A model generated the notes under the pieces. That model was not told the origin of the DNA. It ran no database searches and worked only from the letters and a program-made list of their open reading frames with translations. The position numbers were made by a program, and so were the translations under genes. DNA of 10,761 bases. Origin: Candidatus Nanohaloarchaea archaeon (GTDB taxonomy: Archaea > Nanohalarchaeota > Nanosalinia > Nanosalinales > Nanosalinaceae). The stretch lies in NCBI GenBank assembly GCA_042218075.1, contig JBDGRK010000029.1, positions 1 through 10,761 on the forward strand, read 5' to 3'. This document shows positions 1 to 10,761 of the stretch, piece by piece. The stretch's first letter is position 1; every line of letters starts with the position of its first letter.

Positions 1-1102
1 CGAGTGTTAGAGGCACTTCAATCCTTTCACCATCTCTTATCACTTCCAGGGTAACCGTTTCCCCGACCTCAGTCTCCCGGGAGAGGTAAAGAAGTATGTC
101 GCTTATACCTCTCACTTTCTCATCGTTTATACCGACAATCACATCGCCGCCTATGTTCAGCTCCCTTCCATTCACTTCCACGGTTCTCTCCCCCGCCTGG
201 AGCCCTGCCCTGTCAGCCGGCGAATCTTCCACCACGCTGACAACGAGAAAACCTGTAGTGTTCTTGAGATTCATCCTCTCAGCTATCTCCGGGTTTACAT
301 CGATACCGGAGACGCCTATCCAGGGATGCCTGTTTTCCCCATTCTTGATCAGCGATGGAACCACGTTCTTCACAGTATTTGAGGGAATCGCGAAGCCCAC
401 GCCGGAGAAAGTCCCTGATCTCGACTCTATGGCTGTATTGACTCCGATAATCTCTCCCTGGAGGTTCAGTAGAGGTCCACCGGAGTTGCCCGGGTTGATT
501 GCTGCGTCTGTCTGTATCACATTCGGGGTCGAAAACTGTCCCTGCGTCCTCAAAGTCCTTCCTTTCTGCGAGACAATCCCCGAAGTCATGGAGCTTCTAA
601 GGCCGAAAGGATTTCCTATTGCCACAGCTCTCTGACCGACTTCTACCTTTGAAGAGTCCGCGAGCTGGAGAGGCTCAAGATCTTTCCTGTTCACCTTCAG
701 GACCGCCAGATCGGTGTATGGATCCGTTCCAACTACTCTCGCACGATAGGTTGAACCGTCGAGGAAGCCTACTTCGACCCTTGATGCGCCGGATACAACA
801 TGTTCATTAGTGACAATATAGCCGTCGCTCCTGTAGACGAAGCCCGAAGCCTGCGCCTGCTTGTTCCCGTACGCGTTTACAGAAACCACGGACTGGTCCG
901 CGTAGTTGAAGAGATCCGTCAGCACCTGCTCCCTCGTGTAGTTTATACTTACAGAGTTCTCCCCAAACTTGAAATTCTGCACTTTCTGCTCAAGATTCGT
1001 GACTCTCTGGTCCATGTAGCTGAAGGTAACCGCTGAACCTGCGAAAGATCCTGCAAGCAGAAAAACAAGGGAGGCAGCGACCAGCCTTGAGTCTATCTCC
1101 AT
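1..1102 (-). CDS. htrA: HtrA/DegP-family (S1C) trypsin-like serine protease with N-terminal membrane anchor and C-terminal PDZ domain; 3' end runs off the window
   Basis: Manual translation from ATG at 1102 (not in the ORF track because there is no stop in the window): MEIDSRLVAASLVFLLAGSFAGSAVTFSY (TM)...GYIVTNEHVV (His)...DPYTDLAVLKV (Asp)...AIGNPFGL...IQTDAAINPGNSGGPLLN (Ser)...HPWIGV...DSPADRAGLQAG...GDVIVGIN (PDZ). Confidence 0.95.
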   Translation of the reverse strand, partial: MEIDSRLVAASLVFLLAGSFAGSAVTFSYMDQRVTNLEQKVQNFKFGENSVSINYTREQVLTDLFNYADQSVVSVNAYGNKQAQASGFVYRSDGYIVTNEHVVSGASRVEVGFLDGSTYRARVVGTDPYTDLAVLKVNRKDLEPLQLADSSKVEVGQRAVAIGNPFGLRSSMTSGIVSQKGRTLRTQGQFSTPNVIQTDAAINPGNSGGPLLNLQGEIIGVNTAIESRSGTFSGVGFAIPSNTVKNVVPSLIKNGENRHPWIGVSGIDVNPEIAERMNLKNTTGFLVVSVVEDSPADRAGLQAGERTVEVNGRELNIGGDVIVGINDEKVRGISDILLYLSRETEVGETVTLEVIRDGERIEVPLTL

Positions 1103-1120
1103 AGCTGCAAATTAAAGCTG

Positions 1121-1132
1121 AAAGTTTTATAC
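1121..1132. promoter_or_regulatory. Probable bidirectional TATA element between htrA and the divergent membrane-protein gene
   Basis: AAAG-TTTTATA on + (BRE-TATA-like) reads TATAAAA on -. It lies about 22-28 bp from both the htrA ATG (1102) and the TTG/GTG starts at 1147/1153. Confidence 0.5.
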
Positions 1133-1146
1133 TCAACGAAGAAAGC

Positions 1147-1506
1147 TTGGATGTGAAAAAGTATCTTTTCGAGGCAACTCCCCTTGGAAAAGCGGATAAA
1201 GAGGTAAGAGAGTTTCTCCAGGACAACCTGACTGATGAGGAAATGAAGAAATACAGGACCGCGCTGAACCATTACCGCCAGCTGAAAATAGTTCAGGGAA
1301 CGCTAAAGCTGCTTCTCTACGCCTCAATTGTGACCTCTGTTTTCGCGACCGTGGGACTTAAAGAGGCCCAGATACTGCAGAAGATCGCGTCCTACCTTGG
1401 AACAACCTTCCTGTTCCTTCTTTACGCAGTTGTGAGCTACATCACGATGATAAGGAGGGAGAACTACCACGTCCAGCGAGAGATACTGATCGCGAGGGCG
1501 TCGTGA
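1147..1506 (+). CDS. Hypothetical membrane protein with 2 predicted TM helices (start may be GTG at 1153)
   Basis: Soluble N-terminus followed by hydrophobic segments LLLYASIVTSVFATVGL and YLGTTFLFLLYAVVSYITMI; fills the gap between genes; TATA upstream. Confidence 0.75.
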   Translation: MDVKKYLFEATPLGKADKEVREFLQDNLTDEEMKKYRTALNHYRQLKIVQGTLKLLLYASIVTSVFATVGLKEAQILQKIASYLGTTFLFLLYAVVSYITMIRRENYHVQREILIARAS

Positions 1507-1540
1507 AAAAACTTTAACTGTAGAGTCGCAAGTGAAGGTT

Positions 1541-2650: not shown

Positions 2651-2994
2651 AGAGAAGTCTGAGTAATAGTGAAATCCTTCTGATTCTACTTTCACTGGTA
2701 ACAGGGATTATCCATGTCTGGGTAGGCTACCTCTCGCTCTCGAATACTCTCATTCTGGCAGGCATCGGGTTTCTGGTAGGCCTCTACCTTTTTGTCGTGA
2801 TGGAGAAGTTCCGGACCGTGATCGTCTCTCTATCTATACCGTATACCCTTTCCCAGATCTACTTCGCCTACCAGAGCTACGGTTTTAACCCGACCCAACT
2901 CGTAATAATTGACAAGATAATCCAGCTAGCCTTGATACTCACAGCAATATACTACCTTTCCCGGAACAGTATCGAATTCATGAATGCTCGCTGA
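2647..2994 (+). CDS. Small 4-TM membrane protein of a haloarchaeal hypothetical type
   Basis: ATGA overlap with the upstream gene; four hydrophobic segments with LVTGIIH, LAGIGF, IPYTLSQI and IDKIIQ motifs. Confidence 0.8.
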   Translation: MKRSLSNSEILLILLSLVTGIIHVWVGYLSLSNTLILAGIGFLVGLYLFVVMEKFRTVIVSLSIPYTLSQIYFAYQSYGFNPTQLVIIDKIIQLALILTAIYYLSRNSIEFMNAR

Positions 2995-3244
2995 CTGATT
3001 CTATCAGTTGGTGGAAAAGCTCCTGGTTCAGGGAGTAAATCCTCCTGTTACCCTGCTTCTTCCTCTCCACGATGCCCACTTCATTCAGCTTCTTGAGGTG
3101 GTGGGAGACGCAGCTCTGTCCGCACTCCGCGATCTCGGTAAGTTCGGAGACGGATCTATCGTCTTCCTCCAGCTCGAAAAGTATCTTCATCCTTGCCTGC
3201 TGGGAGAGCACCTGGAAGAACTCGGCGTATTCATACTCGTCCAT
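2978..3244 (-). CDS. ArsR/SmtB-family transcriptional repressor
   Basis: FQVLSQQARMKIL...SVSEL...QSCVSHHLKKLNEVGIVERKKQGNRRIYSL is the classic ArsR wHTH pattern; two Cys (ECGQSC) lie in the HTH. Confidence 0.93.
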   Translation of the reverse strand: MDEYEYAEFFQVLSQQARMKILFELEEDDRSVSELTEIAECGQSCVSHHLKKLNEVGIVERKKQGNRRIYSLNQELFHQLIESVSEHS

Positions 3245-3272
3245 ATTGATAGATATCCATATAGTTTATAAA
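3243..3272. promoter_or_regulatory. Candidate ArsR operator (imperfect 9-2-9 inverted repeat) next to a palindromic TATA box
   Basis: ATATtGATA-GA-TATCcATAT at 3243-3262 (8/9 pairs) overlaps the arsR start codon. TTTATAAA at 3265-3272 reads the same on both strands. Confidence 0.65.
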
Positions 3273-3309
3273 TATCTTTGCCCATCTTCGATACAAGAGG
3301 TGATACCAA

Positions 3310-3627
3310 ATGGAGAACCTTTCAACCGAGGATTTCGAAGACATGAAAAACCGTGAAGACTTTGTGCTGATAGATGTGCTTTCCAGGGAGCAGTTCGAGG
3401 ACGGTCACATCCCGGGAGCGATCAATATACCCTACGATCAGGTCGGAGACATCGTCGAGAAACTGCTGACTCACGACCAGAACATCGTGGTCTACTGCGC
3501 CAGCGAGGGATGCGGGGCGAGTGAAACGGCGGCCGAGAAACTTGAAGACCTTGGATTCAGCAACGTCATGGACTACGAGGCCGGCAAGCAAGGGTGGCAG
3601 GAAGCGGGACACGAACTGGAGGCCTGA
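3310..3627 (+). CDS. Single-domain rhodanese-like sulfurtransferase
   Basis: LIDV...F..GHIPGAINIP and VVYCASEGCGAS (active-site Cys loop), then LGFSNV..YEAGKQGW. SD GAGGTGA at 3297-3303. Confidence 0.93.
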   Translation: MENLSTEDFEDMKNREDFVLIDVLSREQFEDGHIPGAINIPYDQVGDIVEKLLTHDQNIVVYCASEGCGASETAAEKLEDLGFSNVMDYEAGKQGWQEAGHELEA

Positions 3628-3662
3628 TTCCTCCAGTCTTCAACTTTTTACATGACTCGGCT

Positions 3663-4088
3663 TCACTCCCAGCTGAAGCTCTCTTCTATCTCGGTCTTCA
3701 CCGACCTGTGGATGAAGCAGTTCTTCATAGCTGCCTCTCTCACTTCCTCCGCCTTCTCCTCATCGGCGATACCTTTCAAAACGACATCGACCTCCGCCTT
3801 ATCAACTATAGGCCTTGAATCCTTTCCCCGGTCAAGTACAGCCCTGGAACTTGATTCAATGGTTTCAAACTCAAGGTTTTTCCTCTCTGCTATCGTCTTG
3901 AAGGTGGCGACAATGCAGTTTTCAATGGAGGAAAGGAAAAGATCTTCAGGCGTCGCCAGACTGTCAACTCCGCCGAACTCCTCTGGAACTGAAACATCCA
4001 GGCTCTGATCGGATATACCGGCTTCCCAGCTATCCTCTCCTTTCGAAGCTTCGGTCGCCGAGAAGAACTCCAGCGGATAATCCACCAT
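3663..4088 (-). CDS. OsmC/Ohr-superfamily protein (paralogue A)
   Basis: VPEEFGG...TPEDLF...ENC(58)IVATF...KNC(124)FIHRSV; both family Cys are present. Confidence 0.9.
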   Translation of the reverse strand: MVDYPLEFFSATEASKGEDSWEAGISDQSLDVSVPEEFGGVDSLATPEDLFLSSIENCIVATFKTIAERKNLEFETIESSSRAVLDRGKDSRPIVDKAEVDVVLKGIADEEKAEEVREAAMKNCFIHRSVKTEIEESFSWE

Positions 4089-4114
4089 GAAATTAGTTTA
4101 CACATACGGGAATA

Positions 4115-6232
4115 TCAATCTTTACAGTACCAGGAAGATCTGAGTGAAACTTCCTCAGGCCCTTCAACCCTCTCCCTTATTTCATTTCTGTCAAGACCCA
4201 TGGGAGACAGGATCGACTCTGCGGCCCTGATCAGCTTAGTGACGTAGAAATCAGGATCGTATCTCCCTTCCGTCTCGAACTCCAGCCTCACCCTGTCTCC
4301 AGGTTCCGCATCATCCTCCCTCACCACATACCTGACTTTCTGGCCCGGCCTCACATCAAGACCGTTAATCTCGGCTCTCTTCAGCGCGGAATAGTTCCTG
4401 TTCTTCACCTGGTACTGCTCCAGTTTTTTGCTGACATTCTTCTCAATGATAAGATCAGAAGGATCAACGCCTCCAGACTCCAGCTTCTCGATACAGGATT
4501 CAAGAAGCTCCAGAACTTCCTCAACTGATCTTTTCTCATCGTACCTCTCAATCATCTCCATCTGGCATTCCTTCACATAATCACAGGCGGAGTGCTGCTC
4601 CACCTCGATGCCCGCCGTCTTGATCCCTCCTCCTTTCTTCCTCCCGAAGTAGCGGTTGAGCGTTCCTATACTCGCCTCTTTGGATGCTCTAGGAACGAAA
4701 GCCACCCATTCAAACTCGTGCTCCAGTTCCAGCTTGATGCCTATCTCATCCGATATCTCCCTGCGCACCTCGCTGATCGGATTCGCACCTTCCCTCCCCT
4801 GAACCCACAGACTGTCGACTATGCCGTGGACGATACCGTAGCCGTTCTCATCGAAGATATCGGCTGTTTTGCTCATTATCTTACGATCAAATGCCTGTAT
4901 CGCCTGGTGGCACTCTATAGCGCCGTAGGAGGCGTGTGCGTGACCCATGTAGCCGAAGCAGGAGACCAGCAGCCACTTTATCGCGTCGATACTTCCCTGT
5001 ACATACTTCCTCTCCTCCTTATTCTCGATCTCTTCCACCCTCTCCTTCATCTCCTGTCGATCATCCACAAGCGGCGCCAGAACTTCGGAAATAAAGCCCT
5101 GACTCTGCTCGCATATGCTGTAGTCAAGTTCCGGGACCCTGGAGTTGTCGCAGCAATCGCAGCAGACGGTCTCCGGCGAGATGTTCTTCTCCACCATGAT
5201 GCTGGGGAAGAGAGAGGCGAAGTCCGCCTCGAAGACGTTCTCGTGGATTCCTGGCTCAGGGTTGAATATGTATCCTCCTCGATCCGCATCATGTAGGGTC
5301 TCCATCGACTTGAAGTTCTCGCCGCTCCAGTTCTTCCAGGAGGTCAGGGTATCCTTCTCAAGGTAGGCCTTCCTGATCTCTATGGCGGTGAGAAGTCTGC
5401 CTATCGACCCCCAGGCAAGCTCCTGCAGAGGCTTCCAGCTCCTCCTCACCAGATCCCAGAGACCTTCAACCGTGGCCTCCCCGAGAAGAAAGCTGTTGGA
5501 CTCGTCTATCACTATTCGGCCGGGAACGTTGAACCTTGCGGATGAGTGCACCGTCTTGCCGTAGCTCTGGACCGTGTTCTCGGAAGCAAGCTTCTCGAAG
5601 CCTTCCAGCCTTCCGAACGAGTAATCCAGGCCGTATTCCCGGATCTTTTCCTCGATTAGGGGAAGCAGCTGTCCTCTACTGACGTAGAGTATGTCGGGAT
5701 CCTTCTGCTCCAGCTCACTGACAAGAAGCTCCAGTACCTCCCGCCCTGACCCCGCGACTTTCTCGCCATCAACCCTGAGACCGGACAGATCCGAGTCCGC
5801 GATCGACTTCCTGTGGAGGCTGAGCCTCATCTCCTCCAGCCTTGAGAGATCATCCGGTACCGGCTCGATCCTGTTCTGGAGGCAGTACCTGAACTGCCTT
5901 GATAGAGATACGTTATAGAAGCGGAACTTCTGGCGGGGAAAACCCGAGATTATCCTGTGGGCTATCTTACTGACCCTATCGGGCCTGGAAACATCAACCC
6001 TGACAACTTTACTCTTCTCTCTATCTTCCAGCGAGGTAAACCACTCCTCGAAACAGGTGGATTCAACCCCTCTCTTCCGGGAGAGCCAGGCCCGGAGCTC
6101 CAGAAGATCTTTGCTGGAACCACCTATGTAGAAGCGTGGGCTGTAGCTTTCATCGACTTTCCGCACTACCTCCTCTCCCTGCCTGCTCCAGAGAAACGCT
6201 TTACCGTTCCTGAAGTCGATCTTGAATACCAT
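4115..6232 (-). CDS. polB2: Family B DNA polymerase of the archaeal PolB2 (Dpo2-like) group
   Basis: Motif A ADFASLFPSIM, motif B KWLLVSCFGYMG, motif C HGIVDSLWV (canonical YGDTDS), C-terminal VRPGQKVRYVV and YDPDFY. No recognisable Exo I-III carboxylate motifs. The ATG at 6232 overlaps the upstream stop (TGATG). Confidence 0.92.
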   Translation of the reverse strand: MVFKIDFRNGKAFLWSRQGEEVVRKVDESYSPRFYIGGSSKDLLELRAWLSRKRGVESTCFEEWFTSLEDREKSKVVRVDVSRPDRVSKIAHRIISGFPRQKFRFYNVSLSRQFRYCLQNRIEPVPDDLSRLEEMRLSLHRKSIADSDLSGLRVDGEKVAGSGREVLELLVSELEQKDPDILYVSRGQLLPLIEEKIREYGLDYSFGRLEGFEKLASENTVQSYGKTVHSSARFNVPGRIVIDESNSFLLGEATVEGLWDLVRRSWKPLQELAWGSIGRLLTAIEIRKAYLEKDTLTSWKNWSGENFKSMETLHDADRGGYIFNPEPGIHENVFEADFASLFPSIMVEKNISPETVCCDCCDNSRVPELDYSICEQSQGFISEVLAPLVDDRQEMKERVEEIENKEERKYVQGSIDAIKWLLVSCFGYMGHAHASYGAIECHQAIQAFDRKIMSKTADIFDENGYGIVHGIVDSLWVQGREGANPISEVRREISDEIGIKLELEHEFEWVAFVPRASKEASIGTLNRYFGRKKGGGIKTAGIEVEQHSACDYVKECQMEMIERYDEKRSVEEVLELLESCIEKLESGGVDPSDLIIEKNVSKKLEQYQVKNRNYSALKRAEINGLDVRPGQKVRYVVREDDAEPGDRVRLEFETEGRYDPDFYVTKLIRAAESILSPMGLDRNEIRERVEGPEEVSLRSSWYCKD

Positions 6233-6483
6233 CAATCCTCCAGCTCCTCAACCCTCTCCTCGAGCTCGTTCAGCTGTTTCTGAAGGCCGAGGAGTATTGA
6301 CAGGAAGGCCGGCATTCCCGGGCTCGTGGAGTTCAGCTGTGAGGCGGCGTGCGCACTGCTGTAGGCTTTTTCCTCGAGATCGGTGAAGTGTTCTTCATCG
6401 GACCTGAGCTCCTTCCTGAACGATCTTAGCTGTTCAAAGAACTGCTCCAGGTGCTGCCTGTAGGTCCTGTTCGTTCTTCCCAA
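6232..6483 (-). CDS. Small PolB2-associated helical protein (arCOG07300-like), 83 aa, TTG start
   Basis: SD GGAGGTG 7 nt before TTG at 6483 gives MGRTNRTYRQHLEQFFEQLRSFRKELR...PAFLSILL. This matches, from memory, the MGRTxPT/S...FRRALR family encoded next to polB2. Confidence 0.85.
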   Translation of the reverse strand: MGRTNRTYRQHLEQFFEQLRSFRKELRSDEEHFTDLEEKAYSSAHAASQLNSTSPGMPAFLSILLGLQKQLNELEERVEELED

Positions 6484-7135
6484 CGATTTCCACCTCCCCT
6501 TTGAAAGTGGAATTCGTGAAGAGCGGTACAGTGGTCTGGATTTTGCCGTTCGAGCGGTAAATCTGGGAGCTGAATCCCTCTGACTCAAACTTGAGGCCCT
6601 GGCAGGTCTTTTCAGCTTCAACGGTCTTTTCAGCCCTGGCCCTGATCCTGAATTCCAGGCTGCCGGGAACCCTGTCCGATAGAGAGGTCAATACTTTCAG
6701 GCCGTATTCCGCCGCGTACCTATCGATCCTCTGCATCATTTCTCCAAAAAGATCTTCGCGTTCCTTCTCCTTCAGCTGATCCTCGTACATCAGGTTTATC
6801 GATGGCATCACCATCACCTCCGCATCCTCCAGGAATTCTTCTGCCTCCATAACTGATGTGTAGTGCTGGTAGGGCGTGTAGCTCCTTGAGACCATTATAT
6901 CCCGGAGAAAGTTCTCTCCCCCGACTCGAGACATCCTGAATGTGGATGCCTGGTCTCCCTGGTCGATCCAGAATGCCTTGCCACTCGAAAGCTCCCTGGA
7001 TAGAAGTATCTGGAACACGGGAAGATCAGGGTCCGCCTCTACCAGGTTTATGCCTCTCTCAATTTGGGGCAGGGTCTGTACGAGCAGTTTTGATCCTGTT
7101 TCAGTCTTCCTGTCAAGTTCAAGCTCCGGGATCAT
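6434..7135 (-). CDS. Degenerate RadA/RecA-fold protein of the polB2 operon (start ATG 7135, alternatively GTG 7156)
   Basis: RecA-like order of motifs: LPQIERGINLVE (P-loop position lacks GxxxxGKT), AFWIDQG, IMVSRSYTPYQH, VMVMPSINLMY (Walker B Asp absent). First gene of the cassette. TTTAATTA about 26-33 bp upstream of ATG 7135. Confidence 0.8.
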   Translation of the reverse strand: MIPELELDRKTETGSKLLVQTLPQIERGINLVEADPDLPVFQILLSRELSSGKAFWIDQGDQASTFRMSRVGGENFLRDIMVSRSYTPYQHYTSVMEAEEFLEDAEVMVMPSINLMYEDQLKEKEREDLFGEMMQRIDRYAAEYGLKVLTSLSDRVPGSLEFRIRARAEKTVEAEKTCQGLKFESEGFSSQIYRSNGKIQTTVPLFTNSTFKGEVEIVGKNEQDLQAAPGAVL

Positions 7136-7232
7136 CGCGACGGGAATAGAATTCACATAATAATTAAATACTGCGACCGGGATGGAAGCTTCCGGGAGTT
7201 CCGGTAAACGGAAAGAAAATCGTTTGGAGAAT

Positions 7233-7658
7233 TCACTCCCAGCGGAATTCTTCCTCTATATCCGTCTTGACGGACCTGTGGATGAAGCAGTTCTTTATCG
7301 CGGCTTGCCTCACTTGATCTGCCTTGTCCTCGTTCTCAACTCCACTCACCTTCACCACTATTTGGGCTTCCTCAATCATGGGTCTTGAGTCCTCAGCTCT
7401 ATCAAGCACCGCATTTGACTCTGATTCTATAGAATCAAATTTCAGCTGCTTTCTCTCCGCTATTGTCTTGAAGGTGGCGACCACACAGTTCTCCAGTGCA
7501 GCCACAAAGATTTGCTCGGGCGATGCAGCAGTTTCTTCCCCTCCAAACTCTTCTGGAACTGAAACATCCAACTCTTCATCAGATAGCCTTGTTTCCCACC
7601 TTTTTTCTTCCTCGGTTGCTTTCGTCTCCGATTCAAATTCTAGCGGATACTTTACCAT
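7233..7658 (-). CDS. OsmC/Ohr-superfamily protein (paralogue B)
   Basis: Same 141-aa length as paralogue A, 86/141 identical by ungapped hand alignment; Cys58 and Cys124 retained. Confidence 0.9.
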   Translation of the reverse strand: MVKYPLEFESETKATEEEKRWETRLSDEELDVSVPEEFGGEETAASPEQIFVAALENCVVATFKTIAERKQLKFDSIESESNAVLDRAEDSRPMIEEAQIVVKVSGVENEDKADQVRQAAIKNCFIHRSVKTDIEEEFRWE

Positions 7659-7679
7659 AAAGAAGATTTGAAAGCAGGA

Positions 7680-7714
7680 ACTTAATCATTTCCGGACACA
7701 TGAAAGTTTTTAGA
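7680..7714. promoter_or_regulatory. Back-to-back BRE-TATA promoters for osmC-B (-) and the nitroreductase (+)
   Basis: GAAAG-TTTTTAGA at 7702-7714 lies about 22 bp before ATG 7736. On -, GGAAAT-GATTAAG lies about 22 bp before ATG 7658. Confidence 0.55.
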
Positions 7715-7735
7715 CTGAATAACCAATATTTCAGT

Positions 7736-8341
7736 ATGGATTTCTCAGAGCTGGTTGAATCCCGGCAGTCTTTCCACAGCTTCAGTGAGGAAGAGATCGG
7801 CGAGGAAGAGTTGAGGGAAATTTTTGAAGAGGTGAGGAGGAGTCCCACGGCGTGGAACCTCCAGCCCTACGAATTTCTGGTTCTAGACTCTGAGGAAAAG
7901 AAGGAGGATGCCTACAAGTCAAGCAACGACCAGGAGTTCCTTCTTGATGCGGACAAGATCGTGGTTGTGATGGGTGATGAGAGGATCGATACTCACGCTG
8001 AGCAGGCCTTCTCGGACGCAGTTGAGAAAGGCTACATGACTCAGGGGGAGGCTGAAGAATTCAGGCAAGCTGTATCAACTTACAGCGAGAGAGGCGAAGA
8101 TTTTGTGTCTGCCTTCCTGAACAAGCAGTGCTCCTTTGCCTGCTGCTTCCTGATGCTGGCGGCCTGGAACCGCGGAATAGGGTCCTGCCCGGTCGCAGGC
8201 TTCGATGCGGAGGAGCTATCGGGAAGGCTTGATCTCGATGAACACCTGAGAACCATGCTGATGCTGCCTCTGGGATACCCTGAGGAGGATAGAGAGAAAA
8301 AATGGCGCAGGAAAGCTGGAGATTTCTACAGTATAGTCTGA
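7736..8341 (+). CDS. Nitroreductase-family FMN-dependent oxidoreductase
   Basis: MDFSELVESRQSFHSF...RRSPTAWNLQPYEFLV...LMLAAWNRGIGSCPVAGFD...LPLGYP. ATG 7736 is preferred to 7700 because the latter overlaps the promoter element. Confidence 0.93.
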   Translation: MDFSELVESRQSFHSFSEEEIGEEELREIFEEVRRSPTAWNLQPYEFLVLDSEEKKEDAYKSSNDQEFLLDADKIVVVMGDERIDTHAEQAFSDAVEKGYMTQGEAEEFRQAVSTYSERGEDFVSAFLNKQCSFACCFLMLAAWNRGIGSCPVAGFDAEELSGRLDLDEHLRTMLMLPLGYPEEDREKKWRRKAGDFYSIV

Positions 8342-8420
8342 TACCCTGAGCAAATAATTTTTTCCGGGCGGGGAAAAGGTGTAATAGTAAAACCGATAAT
8401 ATTCAAACAATGAATAGCCC

Positions 8421-8714
8421 ATGCAGAATTTCGAGAAGATGCTCTGGTGGCTTATCGGCGGCACCAGGGGAGGAGAAAACCGCCTGAGAATAATCAGGAA
8501 GCTTGAGGAGAAGCCCATGAATACCAATAAACTGGCAGAAGAACTTGACCTGGACTACAAGACTGTGGAGCATCACCTCGACCTGATGCAGGAGCATAAC
8601 GTGATAACCTCGATGGGAGAAGGTTACGGCAAGAATTTCTTCCTGACAGAGCAGATGGAAGAAAATAAAGAAAAGCTGGACCAAATACAGGATGAGGCAG
8701 GTGTGGAAGTATGA
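8421..8714 (+). CDS. ArsR-like winged-helix transcription regulator (archaeal 'LWWLIGGTRGG' type)
   Basis: LWWLIGGTRGGENRLRII...PMNTNKLAEELDLDYKTVEHHLDLM...GEGYGKNFFL. Confidence 0.9.
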   Translation: MQNFEKMLWWLIGGTRGGENRLRIIRKLEEKPMNTNKLAEELDLDYKTVEHHLDLMQEHNVITSMGEGYGKNFFLTEQMEENKEKLDQIQDEAGVEV

Positions 8715-9100
8715 AACCGAGGCATGAAATGGCGGGTGTAGCAGGATTCGCATTTATCACAGGTCTATTGGCCGCGTACCTGAGTCAACAGGCTCTTTTT
8801 GCACCCGAACAGTACGTTGAAACTGCTATCGCTGTTAAAGTGTTCTTTTCATCGGCAAACGCCATACTCCTGGCAGGACTCGTGCTGAACTACGCCCAGA
8901 TCTACAGGAAAATGCCGACCTCGACTTCCAGGATCTTTCTCATATTCAGCTCGGCGCTGATGTTCTACGCGATCTCATCCAACCCTATCGTTCACCTCCT
9001 GTTCGGCTACGAGTTCATACCTCTAGGACCTTTCACCTACATTCCCGACCTGTTCGTGACTGCGGCAACAGGAGCGATACTGTACGAGAGCTACCGGTAG
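8711..9100 (+). CDS. 4-TM membrane protein coupled to the wHTH regulator
   Basis: ATGA overlap; four hydrophobic segments, including ANAILLAGLVLNYAQIYRK...IFLIFSSALMFYAISSNP. Confidence 0.82.
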   Translation: MKPRHEMAGVAGFAFITGLLAAYLSQQALFAPEQYVETAIAVKVFFSSANAILLAGLVLNYAQIYRKMPTSTSRIFLIFSSALMFYAISSNPIVHLLFGYEFIPLGPFTYIPDLFVTAATGAILYESYR

Positions 9101-9112
9101 AAGAATAACTTT

Positions 9113-9177
9113 TTTGGGCTAATTTGGGCCTGATTTGGGTCTGGATTGGAACCAAGTTCGGAATACGGGTTTTAAAA
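9113..9177 (+). promoter_or_regulatory. Helically phased TTTGGG direct-repeat array followed by a TATA box
   Basis: TTTGGG at 9113, 9123 and 9134, ATTGGA at 9145, GTTCGG at 9156 (spacing 10, 11, 11, 11), then TTTTAAAA at 9170-9177. Confidence 0.65.
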
Positions 9178-9211
9178 CAGAACCGTATTTTCAGGATAAG
9201 GTGACTCGAGA

Positions 9212-9337
9212 ATGGAAAGAAGACTTGGTAAATGCATATTCTGCAACCAGAGAGTCAAAACCGACCAGACCTACCTCACAGTAGCGGAGGGATACGCACA
9301 CAGGAGCTGTCTCAGCAGAACAGGAATCATGGCCTGA
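9212..9337 (+). CDS. 41-aa putative zinc-finger microprotein (CxxC...HxxC)
   Basis: MERRLGKCIFCNQRVKTDQTYLTVAEGYAHRSCLSRTGIMA*. SD AAGGTGA at 9198-9204, TATA at 9170-9177, pyrimidine/T-rich tract downstream. Absent from the ORF track, whose shortest entry is 60 aa. Confidence 0.75.
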   Translation: MERRLGKCIFCNQRVKTDQTYLTVAEGYAHRSCLSRTGIMA

Positions 9338-9401
9338 AAACGGAGAGAAACTAATCGATACGGAGACTTTATCCTTCTATATTTTTAGGAACTGGAATTA
9401 G

Positions 9402-9463
9402 CGTCGGGGGCGTCATAAAAACCAGCGGTTAAAACACCTCGAAGCACTACACTTTATTACAGC
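9402..9463 (+). repeat. 62-bp direct repeat, copy 1
   Basis: 52/62 identical, ungapped, to 10062-10123; shares a perfect 21-bp core CGGGGGCGTCATAAAAACCAG (9405-9425). Confidence 0.92.
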
Positions 9464-9467
9464 CTAA

Positions 9468-9950
9468 TCAAAATTCGACCTCTCCTTCAAAATACAGGTC
9501 TACTTTCTTGCCACCAATATTGAATATTTCTACTCTATCTCCATTCGGAATTAATGCCAGTTGGAAGCGTGAAAAACTCTTCGGGACTTTTTCTCCTCCT
9601 TCACGCTTGGAAACTTGGGAATTATTAAACTTGTAATAGACTAAATCACCAACTACCTGACCTTCTTTATGACCCACATCTCTTCCAATTATATACATAT
9701 CGCCTTTTAAGGAGGGCATCGCACCGCCAATCATCATTTTCTTAGCTCCGCCAGGGCTCGCTATAATCTTGAAATCCTTCTGTGCTACCTCAAAATGGTC
9801 GCCGAGATGTAGGTCAACTCCGCCGTGTTTCTGTAATCTTTGAACTGCCTTTCCGACCTTCTCTTTATCGTGTTCTTGCTGTTTTTCAATCTGGGTAAGT
9901 GCATTCTCAATCGAACTGACAATATCTTTATTCGCAGAAACTCTCTTCAT
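9468..9950 (-). CDS. Hypothetical protein with a probable C-terminal FHA-like domain
   Basis: YIIGRD...SFSRFQLALIPNGDRVEIFNIGG resembles the FHA G-R / S-R-x-H(Q) / N-x-G pattern. Helical N-terminus. TTTAATTA promoter-like element about 25-30 bp upstream. Confidence 0.65.
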   Translation of the reverse strand: MKRVSANKDIVSSIENALTQIEKQQEHDKEKVGKAVQRLQKHGGVDLHLGDHFEVAQKDFKIIASPGGAKKMMIGGAMPSLKGDMYIIGRDVGHKEGQVVGDLVYYKFNNSQVSKREGGEKVPKSFSRFQLALIPNGDRVEIFNIGGKKVDLYFEGEVEF

Positions 9951-10000
9951 AAGCTCAACTACTATAAAGTCATTAATTAAAGTTGCCTAAACTACGGATT

Positions 10001-10060
10001 TTAACCCGCAGAACTTCTGCCGCCAGAAATCACGTTTCTCAAGCTCTGAGTTCGGGTTGA
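10001..10060. other. Cluster of short inverted repeats (possible structured RNA/ssDNA element)
   Basis: AACCCG (10003)/CGGGTT (10053) enclose GCAGA-ACT-TCTGC, AGAAA-TCACG-TTTCT and CTCA-AGCTC-TGAG; adjacent stems share 1-2 nt. Confidence 0.4.
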
Positions 10061-10061
10061 A

Positions 10062-10123
10062 CGCCGGGGGCGTCATAAAAACCAGAAGTTAAACCGCCTG
10101 GACGCATTACAGTTTGTTACAGC
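10062..10123 (+). repeat. 62-bp direct repeat, copy 2
   Basis: Exactly 660 bp downstream of copy 1, same orientation, 10 substitutions and no indels. Confidence 0.92.
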
Positions 10124-10164
10124 GACTCCTTTGATTTTAAATCGAGAAATTATAATTCTTACAT

Positions 10165-10761
10165 ATGAGCAACGAGTTCATCTTGCCCTCAGCCCTAAAT
10201 AAAGGAGATAAAGTTGCTGTTATGGCAACCTCAGCAGGAATCAAGGAGAGATTTCCAGCAGCGTTCGAAAAAGGAATAGAAAGATTGGAAGAAAGATTCG
10301 GTCTTGAACCTGTAATTTACGATACCGCAGAGAGGGATACCGAATATCTGAACGCTAACCCTAAAGAGAAAGCAGAAGAGTTTATGCAGGCTTTCGAAGA
10401 CCCAGAAATTAAAGGAGTGATACCAGTTTCAGGAGGCGACGAAGAACTCAGAGTTCTCAAGCACCTCGACCCTGAAAGACTGAAGAACAATCCTACAAGG
10501 TTCTATGGAATAAGCGATAATACAAATCTACACCTTTACTTATGGAATCTCGGTATTCAAACCTTCTACGCAGGACAGATAGTCCCAGACTTGATGAGCG
10601 GTGGAGAACTTGGAGAATACACTTACAATCATTTGGAAAGAGTATTTTTCGAGGATAGTTTAGGCACAGTTGAAGCATCAGACCGCTTTACAGATGAATT
10701 TGTGGACATCCAGACAGACGCACCTATCAACCCTGGCAACAGCGGAGGACCGCTCATCAAC
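10165..10761 (+). CDS. Peptidase S66 family (LD-carboxypeptidase/MccF-like), incomplete at the 3' end; the last 18 codons are HtrA-like
   Basis: Manual translation from ATG 10165: MSNEFILPSALNKGDKVAVMATSAG...AFEDPEIKGVIPVSGGDE...NPTRFYGISDNTNLHLYLW (catalytic Ser, G-x-S-D). TTTTAAA at 10135-10141. Open to the window end. Confidence 0.9.
   Translation, partial: MSNEFILPSALNKGDKVAVMATSAGIKERFPAAFEKGIERLEERFGLEPVIYDTAERDTEYLNANPKEKAEEFMQAFEDPEIKGVIPVSGGDEELRVLKHLDPERLKNNPTRFYGISDNTNLHLYLWNLGIQTFYAGQIVPDLMSGGELGEYTYNHLERVFFEDSLGTVEASDRFTDEFVDIQTDAPINPGNSGGPLIN

What the first reader, a model, noticed from the sequence alone, without database searches (positions are those of the whole stretch)
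9402..10123. Unexplained 62-bp direct repeats bracketing a foreign-looking gene: candidate cassette or recombination system
Seen: two intergenic copies (9402-9463, 10062-10123), 52/62 identical with no indels, a perfect 21-bp core, conserved GTTAAA, and a 10-bp-spaced pair of TACA motifs (TTACAG-TTTG-TTACAG in copy 2). Copy 1 ends 4 bp from the stop of the enclosed gene, copy 2 ends 41 bp before the S66 start, and the DNA looks AT-richer from about 9340 onward. Inference: a 660-bp repeat+gene unit resembles attL/attR scars or integron/pdif-like cassette boundaries for a recombinase acting in trans, since none is encoded in the window. A dispersed ncRNA, MITE end or multi-site regulatory module is an alternative. 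Substitution-only divergence suggests spacing is under selection.
Basis: partly seen in the sequence, partly recalled or inferred. Interest (0 to 1): 0.75.

Follow-up and report, generated by a model that had tools for sequence, protein, structure and literature searches.

The report
tRNA-Ser integration-site scars bounding gene islets
The two 62-bp repeats are junction scars, each a conserved 51-nt element end fused to the last 11 bases of a serine tRNA gene, that mark where small blocks of foreign genes were inserted one after another next to that tRNA gene in a nanohaloarchaeon.

Summary
9402-9463 and 10062-10123 are direct repeats, 52/62 identical with no indels, and they are the only two copies in the 1.1-Mb genome.

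Read on the minus strand, each copy is a conserved 51-nt arm followed by the last 11 nt of tRNA-Ser(GCT). A model built from the copies finds 7 clear copies and 1 weak one, in 5 of 50 genomes of the family (Candidatus Nanohaloarchaea). It finds none in the 4 same-genus genomes and none in 20 genomes of other families.

In two other genera the copies lie in the tRNA's orientation, 1-8 kb downstream of tRNA-Ser(GCT), two per array. The 11-nt core follows the host tRNA's own sequence. In a same-genus genome, a 9.4-kb element carrying a tyrosine integrase sits at this tRNA end. It is bounded by a 20-nt repeat made of the same tRNA end plus trailer.

The repeats are therefore attR-type junctions in an integration hot spot. 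The 660-bp unit is one integrase-less islet (trailer/promoter, 160-aa gene, arm, core), comparable to bacterial cis-mobilisable elements stacked by accretion.

I found no Rfam match, no supported RNA fold, no inverted ends and no attC-like hairpin. I also found no excision joint, no free attP and no partner recombinase, so present-day mobility is open.

The parts
10062..10072 (-). Core of copy 2: 11 nt equal to the 3' end of a tRNA-Ser(GCT) (last 3 nt of the T stem, the acceptor 3' strand and G73). This is the GGCG variant, as in the G047 tRNA, not the own tRNA (GACG).
10073..10123 (-). Arm of copy 2: the conserved 51-nt non-tRNA segment. It holds three TGTAAC-like motifs and a T5 run, and takes the place of the tRNA body. 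It is the right end of the S66 islet.
   Evidence: the same arm sits next to S66 in G047
9402..9412 (-). Core of copy 1: 11 nt identical to the 3' end of the genome's own tRNA-Ser(GCT) at C39:224-234.
9413..9463 (-). Arm of copy 1: the right end of the 160-aa-gene islet. It starts 4 nt after that gene's stop codon.
9990..10061 (-). Left end of the 660-bp islet. In G013 and G050 (two other genera) the same sequence directly follows the real tRNA-Ser(GCT). The stretch 10010-10072 is 86% identical to G013. It probably also carries the promoter of the 160-aa gene (inference).
9468..9950 (-). Cargo of the 660-bp islet: a 160-aa protein of unknown function. It is confined to Nanohaloarchaea and patchy (4 of 50 family genomes).
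10165..10719 (+). Cargo of the next islet toward the tRNA: the N-terminal half (aa 1-185) of an S66 LD-carboxypeptidase. It is 69% identical to the full-length S66 that sits between tRNA-Ser and a repeat copy in G047.
10707..10761 (+). HtrA-type protease segment (catalytic-Ser motif) fused in frame to the truncated S66. It is 100% identical to G047's HtrA. It probably continues into contig C39, whose first 163 nt are the 3' end of that HtrA and whose positions 224-316 are tRNA-Ser(GCT).

Best explanation
**What the repeat is.** On the window's minus strand each 62-bp repeat is a junction of the attR type. It has a conserved 51-nt end ('arm') of a family of inserted DNA segments. The arm is joined to an 11-nt core that is the 3' end of tRNA-Ser(GCT).

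**Where it sits.** The window lies in the variable gap that opens just downstream of tRNA-Ser(GCT) in this family of Nanohaloarchaea.

**How the array forms.** DNA segments entered at the tRNA's 3' end by recombination within the core, or within core plus trailer. Each entry pushed the earlier junction outward, so a tandem array of islets built up. Each islet ends in arm + core.

**Reading order from the tRNA.** This assumes the inferred C39-C22 join. The order is: tRNA-Ser, then the HtrA'/S66' islet, then copy 2, then the trailer + 160-aa gene islet (the 660-bp unit), then copy 1.

**State of the islets.** They carry no integrase, so they resemble bacterial cis-mobilisable elements stacked by accretion.

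**Shown:**
- the tRNA identity of the core
- the arrays next to the tRNA in other genera
- the co-variation of the core with the host tRNA
- use of this tRNA end by a real integrase-bearing element in the genus
- lateral exchange of islet cargo

**Inferred:**
- that a tyrosine integrase made these particular junctions, rather than homologous recombination over the roughly 90-nt core + trailer repeat
- that the arm holds recombinase arm-type sites
- that C39 and C22 are neighbours
For: 1. **Core equals the tRNA end.** The last 11 nt of copy 1 are identical to the own tRNA-Ser(GCT) end at C39:224-234. Only the two copies and the tRNA carry this core in a matching context, among 6 regex hits in the genome.

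2. **More copies, patchy distribution.** Model R1 finds 7 strong copies (E 4e-11 or better) plus 1 weak one, in 5 of 50 family genomes and 5 of 21 genera. It finds 0 in 4 same-genus genomes. At order level the count is 5 of 70, with 0 of 20 outside the family.

3. **Arrays hang off the tRNA.**
 - G015: the tRNA-Ser(GCT) end at L013 17666 is followed by copy a 2.07 kb downstream and weak copy b 5.6 kb further, all in the same orientation.
 - G047: the order is tRNA-Ser, S66, copy a, HtrA with two more ORFs, copy b. The two contigs are joined by a 55-nt overlap.
 - In G047, copy b lies about 1.5 kb from the homologue of window 60-1502.

4. **Core follows the host.** In G015 both the tRNA and copy a end in the C-to-T variant and share 9 further trailer nt, giving a 20-nt identity. 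In G047 the tRNA and copy a share core + trailer at 84/89.

5. **A working precedent in the genus.** In G004 a 463-aa tyrosine integrase lies directly after tRNA-Ser(GCT). A 9.4-kb element there is bounded by an exact 20-nt repeat: the tRNA's last 11-12 nt plus trailer. That repeat abuts the block homologous to window 1-1514.

6. **Hypervariable gap.** The four same-genus genomes have four different sequences after the tRNA. Their gaps to the conserved HtrA/p119 block are 1.1, 2.1, 2.9 and 9.4 kb. In 5 of 30 tRNA-Ser loci the contig ends in the tRNA or within 50 nt after it.

7. **Displaced trailers.** The flank after copy 2 is the trailer that follows the real tRNA in G013 and G050. In G058 a true 20-nt tRNA-Ser 3' fragment plus the G047-type trailer, a deaminase gene and arm + core form a unit of about 650 bp with the same layout as ours.

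8. **Cargo moves laterally.** Own C39:1-163 is 94% identical in nucleotides to G047's HtrA, and C22's last 55 nt are 100% identical to it. Neighbouring syntenic genes are 73-79% identical and the tRNA 89%. The 160-aa gene is in 4 of 50 genomes and S66 in 20 of 50.
Against: - No integrase or other mobile-element gene lies in any islet next to an arm. The cargo genes are S66, HtrA, NUDIX, shikimate dehydrogenase, hydrolases, deaminases, PPDK and MFS.
- G015 has two copies but no PF00589 hit at all, at 79% completeness.
- The right arm of the one intact element (G004) is unlike the 51-nt arm.
- No free attP, circular form or intact element carrying the arm was found in viral contigs, phages, plasmids, genome contigs or metagenome contigs.
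- The link of the window to tRNA-Ser rests on inference: two contig ends lie in one HtrA-type gene. No overlap was found.
- For G046 and G058 no link to the tRNA could be made.
- About 6.7 kb beyond copy 1 (2651-9401) is also non-syntenic, so copy 1 is not the island's outer edge.
- The arm is 80-90% conserved while all flanks differ. This fits related mobile ends, but it also fits selection for a host function.
Confidence: 0.7

Rival explanations
1. A live cassette platform. Arm + core + trailer would be a compact attP of about 130 bp. Small integrase-less circles (trailer/promoter + one to a few genes + arm) would be captured at, and shuffled within, the tRNA-Ser(GCT) end. The agent would be either an integrase supplied in trans or homologous recombination over the roughly 90-nt core + trailer repeat. 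In function this is integron-like, but it is unrelated to integrons.
For: - There are two single-gene units with the same layout. Ours is 660 bp. The G058 deaminase unit is about 650 bp. In both, the ORF stop lies 4-8 nt before the arm.
- The S66 and HtrA modules occur in both the own genome and G047, but in opposite order relative to the tRNA.
- The copy 2 junction joins an arm to a trailer typical of other genera, which is the form expected for attP between tandem units.
- No decayed integrase is found in any of the six islets examined.
- The HtrA cargo is nearly identical across genera.
Against: - No circle or attP was found outside the arrays in the collections searched.
- No integrase co-occurs with the repeat; G015 has none.
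- Islets range from 1 to 7 genes and are not uniform cassettes.
- The near-identical HtrA cargo has unrelated trailers in the two genomes.
- Only 5 of 70 genomes carry the repeat.
Confidence: 0.2
2. A host cis-regulatory or transcript-end module. It would act as a terminator or insulator through the T5 run, as a transcription-factor site through the three TGTAAC motifs, or as a small RNA. The tRNA-like end would be incidental.
For: - The element is always intergenic.
- In 4 of 7 copies it starts 4-30 nt after the stop of a same-strand gene, and it holds a conserved T5 run of the kind that ends archaeal transcripts (the terminator rule is recalled knowledge).
- The arm is conserved while the flanks are not.
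Against: - There is no Rfam match at E up to 1.
- Fold energies are no better than shuffles, with z from +0.16 to +1.30.
- The only consensus helix has 6 pairs and 1 compensatory change, and 72 of 500 shuffles reach it.
- The patchy occurrence (5 of 70 genomes, 0 of 4 in the genus) does not suit a host regulator site.
- This reading does not explain the tRNA core, its co-variation with the host tRNA, or the position of the arrays.
Confidence: 0.07
3. A tRNA part. It would be either the 3' half of a split tRNA-Ser, or one interrupted in the T loop, or else a decaying duplicate of the tRNA gene.
For: - The lineage has many odd tRNA genes with long or multiple introns. ARAGORN finds only 25 tRNAs, and a two-intron tRNA-Leu was found by eye.
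- GCGTC and GACGC could form a T-stem-like helix directly before the acceptor strand.
Against: - The would-be T loop is 26 nt and shows no conserved T-loop sequence.
- No 5' half with a complementary trailer was found. All five other acceptor/D-arm pattern hits are a complete tRNA, an intron-bearing tRNA that is complete, or sequence that does not look like a tRNA.
- An intact tRNA-Ser(GCT) is present.
- An essential tRNA part would not be missing from 65 of 70 genomes.
- The 51-nt arm is no more similar to the tRNA body than shuffled arms are; 30-67% of shuffles score as high.
Confidence: 0.03

Closest known systems
Integrative elements that target the 3' end of tRNA genes with a tyrosine integrase, leaving attL/attR direct repeats. 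The local example is the 9.4-kb element at tRNA-Ser(GCT) in G004.
   Same: The direct repeat contains the tRNA's 3' terminal bases plus a few trailer bases: 20 nt in G004 and 20 nt in G015. It has the same orientation as the tRNA and lies downstream of an intact tRNA. Content differs among close relatives.
   Different: No integrase lies inside the bounded segments. The units are tiny (0.66-5.6 kb). The same 51-nt arm recurs next to unrelated cargo. The arm is unlike the right end of the G004 element.
Cis-mobilisable elements (CIMEs) and tandem accretion of genomic islands at tRNA genes in bacteria. I read passages of PMC5704250; the original papers cited there were not read.
   Same: These are att-flanked segments that have lost integration and transfer genes. 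They are stacked in tandem at a tRNA 3' end by successive site-specific integrations into an att site of the resident element.
   Different: They are described for conjugative elements of Firmicutes and Actinobacteria. Here the host is a roughly 1-Mb DPANN archaeon, no parent element is known, and the units can be a single gene.
Integron gene cassettes (attC x attI, IntI), including the integrons reported in Archaea. For that preprint I saw only the search listing and the start of the abstract (10.1101/2022.02.06.479319).
   Same: It is an array of promoter-poor small gene units. Each ends close after the stop codon in a conserved recombination-type site, next to a fixed anchor site, with module order differing between genomes.
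   Different: The attC-like imperfect palindrome or hairpin is absent. No IntI was looked for. The anchor is a tRNA end, not attI. The GTTAAAC in the repeat fits the GTTRRRY core only as a single site with no inverse partner; that consensus is recalled.
tRNA gene fragments left at island borders in prokaryotes. I saw only the title and start of the abstract of PMC9897764.
   Same: A partial tRNA 3' end lies downstream of the full gene.
   Different: Only 11 nt are tRNA-derived. The remaining 51 nt form a conserved non-tRNA arm.

Membership tests
attR-type junction of a tRNA-targeted integrated element | The repeat contains the 3' terminal sequence of the target tRNA gene. | tested here: met
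   The 11-nt core is identical to the own tRNA-Ser(GCT) end in copy 1. Copy 2 has the GGCG variant found in the G047-type tRNA.
attR-type junction of a tRNA-targeted integrated element | It lies downstream of the intact tRNA gene and in the same orientation. | tested here: inconclusive
   This is met in G015 and G047. For the window it is inferred from contig ends C22 and C39 lying in one HtrA-type gene and from genus synteny. No overlap was found.
attR-type junction of a tRNA-targeted integrated element | The core sequence follows the host's own tRNA sequence. | tested here: met
   The G015 tRNA and copy a both carry the C-to-T variant plus 9 shared trailer nt. In G047 core + trailer match at 84/89.
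attR-type junction of a tRNA-targeted integrated element | An integrase gene lies within the bounded segment. | tested here: not met
   No PF00589 hit or other recombinase domain was found among the 36 ORFs scanned against Pfam: 12 in the window and 24 in the G015, G047, G058 and G046 loci. G015 has no PF00589 hit anywhere. The junctions are therefore filed as scars or integrase-less units, not as an intact element.
attR-type junction of a tRNA-targeted integrated element | Presence/absence or content varies among relatives at the same site. | tested here: met
   Four same-genus genomes have four different insertions of 1.1-9.4 kb at this tRNA.
Integron cassette / attC | An imperfect inverted repeat (R''-L''...L'-R') that folds as a hairpin. 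| tested here: not met
   No inverted repeat lies within or between the copies. Fold z-scores are +0.16 to +1.30 on both strands.
Integron cassette / attC | An integron integrase (IntI) next to the array. | not tested
   No recombinase lies in the window. IntI-specific models were not searched.
dif/pdif module (Xer site) | A 28-bp site with two inverted 11-nt arms around a spacer of about 6 nt (recalled definition). | tested here: not met
   The only complementary segments are two 5-6-nt stretches 24-26 nt apart.
MITE / IS end | Terminal inverted repeats, a target-site duplication, and many dispersed copies. | tested here: not met
   There are two copies in the genome, both direct. All linked copies are in one orientation relative to the tRNA.
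Known or structured ncRNA | An Rfam match, or a conserved structure with covariation. | tested here: not met
   There were 0 Rfam matches at E up to 1. One 6-bp helix has covariation that 72 of 500 shuffles reach.
Split tRNA 3' half | A canonical T arm, and a 5' half elsewhere with a complementary trailer. | tested here: not met
   There is no T loop. No 5' half was found. The element is missing from 65 of 70 genomes.

The most novel reading that the evidence does not exclude
Nanohaloarchaea may have a tRNA-anchored gene-capture platform. Small integrase-less units (trailer/promoter, one or a few genes, 51-nt arm) would circulate between genera. They would be inserted, excised and reordered at the 3' end of tRNA-Ser(GCT), through a compact attP of about 130 bp made of arm + core + trailer. 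The agent would be an integrase supplied in trans or homologous recombination. This would be a functional analogue of integrons that arose independently in DPANN archaea.
Probability: 0.2. Interest if true: 0.8.

Novelty: new variant of a known kind. Interest (0 to 1): 0.45.

Why it matters
Nanohaloarchaea have genomes of about 1 Mb and live on host cells, so how they gain genes is an open question. The finding points to one concrete site, the 3' end of tRNA-Ser(GCT), where accessory genes are stacked. These include proteases, a peptidoglycan-type peptidase, deaminases, small metabolic enzymes and proteins of unknown function. In at least one case the cargo was exchanged between genera at 94-100% nucleotide identity.

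The conserved 51-nt arm gives a searchable marker for such islets in hypersaline metagenomes. It is also a defined DNA substrate for testing which recombinase acts on it. If the units prove to be mobilised in trans, this would be a new kind of gene-capture system in Archaea. If not, it is an archaeal case of island accretion and decay, so far documented mainly in bacteria.

Tried and rejected
- **Rfam and folding.** Rfam over the whole window gave nothing. Single-sequence folds of both copies on both strands were no better than shuffles. A consensus fold of 7 copies gave one weak helix that is not supported by controls.
- **Split tRNA.** I searched for acceptor/D-arm patterns and for a trailer complementary to the arm. 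I found only complete tRNAs, among them a two-intron tRNA-Leu, and chance 12-13-mers.
- **Arm as degenerate tRNA body.** Alignment scores equal those of shuffles.
- **A third scar at 1493-1509.** This was a weak R1 hit (E 2.5) at the synteny boundary. I rejected it because the stretch is homologous to the conserved block in all four same-genus genomes.
- **More copies near other loci.** I looked near 22 other tRNA-Ser loci and 3 loci of the 160-aa homologues with filters off and found none.
- **Intact element or attP.** Viral contigs (3 patterns), phages and plasmids gave no hits. Genome contigs gave only the known archaeal copies plus 8 bacterial chance hits. Metagenome contigs gave one record identical to the G015 locus.
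- **attR of the own tRNA-Asn element.** It was not found in the assembly.
- **Contig links.** I could not link G046 or G058 to a tRNA-Ser.
- **Contigs of four public runs laid on 8600-10761.** No joint skips the 660-bp unit, no circle junction appears, and there are no raw reads. Contigs drop rare variants, so this says nothing about excision.
- **Trailer search.** The search with the trailer alone missed G013 and G050, which searches show. The first-look filter evidently lost them.
- **Structure of the 160-aa protein.** The model is poor (pLDDT 45), so no fold search was run. The Atlas gave only an FHA-like lead (score 0.91, TM under 0.5).
- **Earlier findings.** There were none for this genome.
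- **Literature.** Three full-text searches listed no paper on tRNA-linked islands or att sites in Nanohaloarchaea. PMC3316494 (passages read) has nothing on it.
Full report
**1. The observation**

The two copies are real: 9402-9463 and 10062-10123, direct, 52/62 identical with no gaps, with a perfect 21-nt run. The stated distances are right. Copy 1 ends 4 nt from the stop of the minus-strand 160-aa ORF (9468-9950). Copy 2 ends 41 nt before the ATG of the S66 ORF at 10165. Similarity ends abruptly at both borders.

The window is a whole contig (C22) of a 1.10-Mb, 40-contig genome that is 92% complete. BLAST and nhmmer with filters off find only these two copies in it; the next best hit has E 5.5. 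GC drops to 0.39-0.44 from about 9100 onward.

**2. What it is not**

Rfam gives no match at E up to 1 anywhere in the window. ARAGORN finds no tRNA in the window. Neither strand of either copy folds better than shuffled sequence, with z from +0.16 to +1.30.

**3. The key: the other strand and a tRNA**

A search of relatives with 9340-10170 hit two other genera. In G013 the match (window 10010-10072, 86%) turned out to be the 3' trailer of a tRNA-Ser(GCT) plus its last 11 nt.

Read on the minus strand, both window copies end in those 11 nt: the end of the T stem, the acceptor 3' strand and G73. The genome's own intact tRNA-Ser(GCT) is at C39:316-224. It ends in exactly the core of copy 1. Copy 2 has a G in place of A at one acceptor position, as in the tRNA of G047 and several other genera.

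The remaining 51 nt (the 'arm') are not tRNA-like. Their alignment score to the tRNA body equals that of shuffled arms.

**4. The family of copies**

A sequence-only model (R1) built from three copies was run over 50 genomes of the family. It finds 7 strong copies (E 4e-11 or better) and 1 weak one. They lie in 5 of 50 genomes and 5 of 21 genera, and in none of the 4 same-genus genomes. Over the order the count is 5 of 70, with 0 of 20 outside the family.

Record titles of the archaeal hits in the public genome collection name Candidatus Nanohaloarchaea. The 7 copies align with one 1-nt gap and 83% mean column identity. All flanks differ. Contigs from public runs of the same and related brines show further members with other flanks.

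**5. The copies hang off tRNA-Ser(GCT)**

- **G015.** ARAGORN finds tRNA-Ser(GCT) at L013 17758-17666 (minus strand). Copy a lies 2.07 kb downstream in the same orientation. The weak copy b lies 5.6 kb further on (E 3.8e-4 in a 49-kb search) and lacks the acceptor part.
- **G047.** The end of contig C6 overlaps the start of C12 by 55 nt. The locus therefore reads tRNA-Ser(GCT), an 84-nt trailer X, a full-length S66 gene, copy a, an 82-nt X', an HtrA gene with two more ORFs, then copy b. About 1.5 kb further on lies the homologue of window 60-1502.
- **Core follows host.** In G015 both the tRNA and copy a carry a C-to-T variant and share 9 trailer nt, giving a 20-nt identity. In G047 the tRNA and copy a share core + X at 84/89.
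- **G058.** The order is a 169-aa gene, a true 20-nt tRNA-Ser 3' fragment (T loop onward), the G047-type trailer (85-89% identical), a dCMP deaminase gene, then arm + core. This forms a one-gene unit of about 650 bp built like ours.
- **Unlinked.** G058 and G046 could not be linked to a tRNA-Ser by contig overlaps.

**6. This tRNA end is a proven attachment site in the genus**

tRNA-Ser(GCT) was found in 46 of 50 family genomes. In G004 (same genus) a 463-aa ORF with a Phage_integrase domain starts just after the tRNA. An exact 20-nt repeat recurs 9.4 kb downstream. It consists of the tRNA's last 11-12 nt plus trailer, and it abuts the block homologous to window 1-1514. A 61%-identical integrase in the own genome sits next to an intron-bearing tRNA-Asn(GTT) on C13.

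The four same-genus genomes have four different sequences after the tRNA. Their gaps to the conserved p119/HtrA block are 1.1, 2.1, 2.9 and 9.4 kb. In G002 the protein-level synteny reaches the 372-aa ORF. In 5 of 30 tRNA-Ser loci the contig stops in the tRNA or within 50 nt after it. Other genomes carry longer tRNA-Ser 3' fragments nearby. The site is a hot spot.

**7. Placing the window**

The window's left part (1-1514, and to 2650 at protein level) is the conserved block that lies beyond the variable gap in the genus. Its orientation puts copies 1 and 2 on the tRNA side.

At the right end, the S66 ORF matches only the N-terminal 185 residues of G047's S66. It then runs into an HtrA catalytic-serine segment that is 100% identical in nucleotides to G047's HtrA. 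Contig C39 begins with the last 54 codons of that same HtrA (94% identical in both nucleotides and amino acids), followed after 53 nt by the convergent tRNA-Ser(GCT).

A contig of the probable source run carries the S66|HtrA junction. Contigs of two other runs are identical up to 10720 and then continue differently. I read this as a real deletion fusing S66 to HtrA over about 14 shared nt in this population (inference).

The inferred order is: tRNA-Ser, HtrA'::S66', copy 2, trailer + 160-aa gene, copy 1, the small zinc-ribbon ORF, and a further 6.7 kb of non-syntenic DNA. The C39-C22 join is inferred, not shown.

**8. Mechanism**

The simplest account is serial entry of DNA at the tRNA's 3' end by recombination within the core, or core + trailer. 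Each entry leaves an arm + core junction that later entries displace outward. This is the accretion model described for bacterial islands, whose integrase-less att-flanked products are called CIMEs (PMC5704250, passages).

Three observations fit this model:
- Copy 2 joins an arm to a trailer that follows the real tRNA in G013 and G050, which is the attP-like form expected between tandem units.
- The S66 and HtrA modules sit in opposite order in the own genome and in G047.
- The HtrA cargo is far more similar between these two genera (94-100%) than the neighbouring core genes (73-79%) or the tRNA (89%).

The three TGTAAC-like motifs in the arm, two of them 10 nt apart, could be arm-type recombinase sites. 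The T5 run 4-8 nt after three upstream stop codons could end transcripts. Both are inference.

**9. What speaks against the model or stays open**

- No islet holds an integrase or other mobile-element gene.
- G015 has no PF00589 hit at all.
- The arm differs from the right end of the G004 element.
- No free attP or intact arm-bearing element turned up in any collection.
- The roughly 90-nt core + trailer repeats would also allow homologous recombination.
- The near-identical HtrA cargo has unrelated trailers in the two genomes.
- I therefore cannot tell passive scars from units still mobilised in trans.

**10. The enclosed gene**

The 160-aa protein matches nothing in Pfam, NCBIfam or PHROGs. 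It has 10 homologues in the large protein collection. Most carry no source name; those that are named are hypothetical proteins, and the only organism named is a Nanohaloarchaea archaeon. It occurs in 4 of 50 family genomes. Its model is poor (pLDDT 45), and the Atlas offers only an FHA-like lead.

**11. Verdict**

The att/cassette-boundary reading is supported in substance and sharpened: the repeats are attR-type junctions (arm + tRNA-Ser(GCT) end) in a tandem islet array at an integration hot spot. The integron, pdif, MITE, ncRNA and split-tRNA readings fail their defining tests.

It is a new variant of a known kind. Three literature searches listed no description of it in Nanohaloarchaea. 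Supplements were not consulted.

Noticed in passing
window 10165-10761 and G000 contig C39:1-316: The S66 gene is cut at codon 185 and fused in frame to the catalytic-serine region of an HtrA protease. The last 55 nt are 100% identical to G047's HtrA and 80% complementary to window 464-517. C39 starts with the 3' end of the same HtrA, followed by tRNA-Ser(GCT). A contig of the probable source run spans the junction, while contigs of two other runs diverge after 10720.
   Followed up: partly
window 3663-4088 and 7233-7658 (with 4115-7156 between them): Two OsmC-like paralogues (61% aa identity; a 100-nt stretch is 80% identical) lie in direct orientation around a block of family-B DNA polymerase (706 aa), a 129-aa ORF and a 240-aa ORF. 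In the complete same-genus genome G002 that block lies about 340 kb from tRNA-Ser. The window therefore also records a larger rearrangement or transfer.
   Followed up: partly
G000 contig C13:14629-16033: An intron-bearing tRNA-Asn(GTT), missed by ARAGORN, is followed directly by a tyrosine integrase. The integrase is 61% identical to the one at tRNA-Ser(GCT) in G004, and the element's left-end sequence is homologous too. This is probably an integrated element; its far end was not found in the assembly.
   Followed up: partly
G004:C1:91364-100877 (L086): An apparently intact 9.4-kb integrated element lies at tRNA-Ser(GCT). It has a 463-aa integrase and is bounded by an exact 20-nt direct repeat.
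   Followed up: partly
G000 whole genome; C19:2367-2602: ARAGORN finds only 25 tRNA genes, many with introns of 31-226 nt. A tRNA-Leu-like gene with two introns was seen by eye. tRNA annotation in this lineage is clearly incomplete.
   Followed up: no
window 9212-9337: A 41-aa CxxC...C ORF has a weak DUF2175 match (E 0.006). Its homologue in G047 also lies next to a repeat copy, but on the other side of it (72% nt identity, G047 C12:128-235).
   Followed up: no
window 1-55: The contig's first 55 nt are identical to the last 55 nt of contig C17. This is a k-mer overlap, so C17 and C22 are neighbours in the assembly graph.
   Followed up: no
L041 (G049), L043 (G054), G016:C3:47136-47193, G009:C47:1-54: Longer tRNA-Ser 3' fragments that include the T arm lie 56 nt or more downstream of the tRNA, or elsewhere. 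These look like scars of other element families using a larger core at the same tRNA.
   Followed up: no
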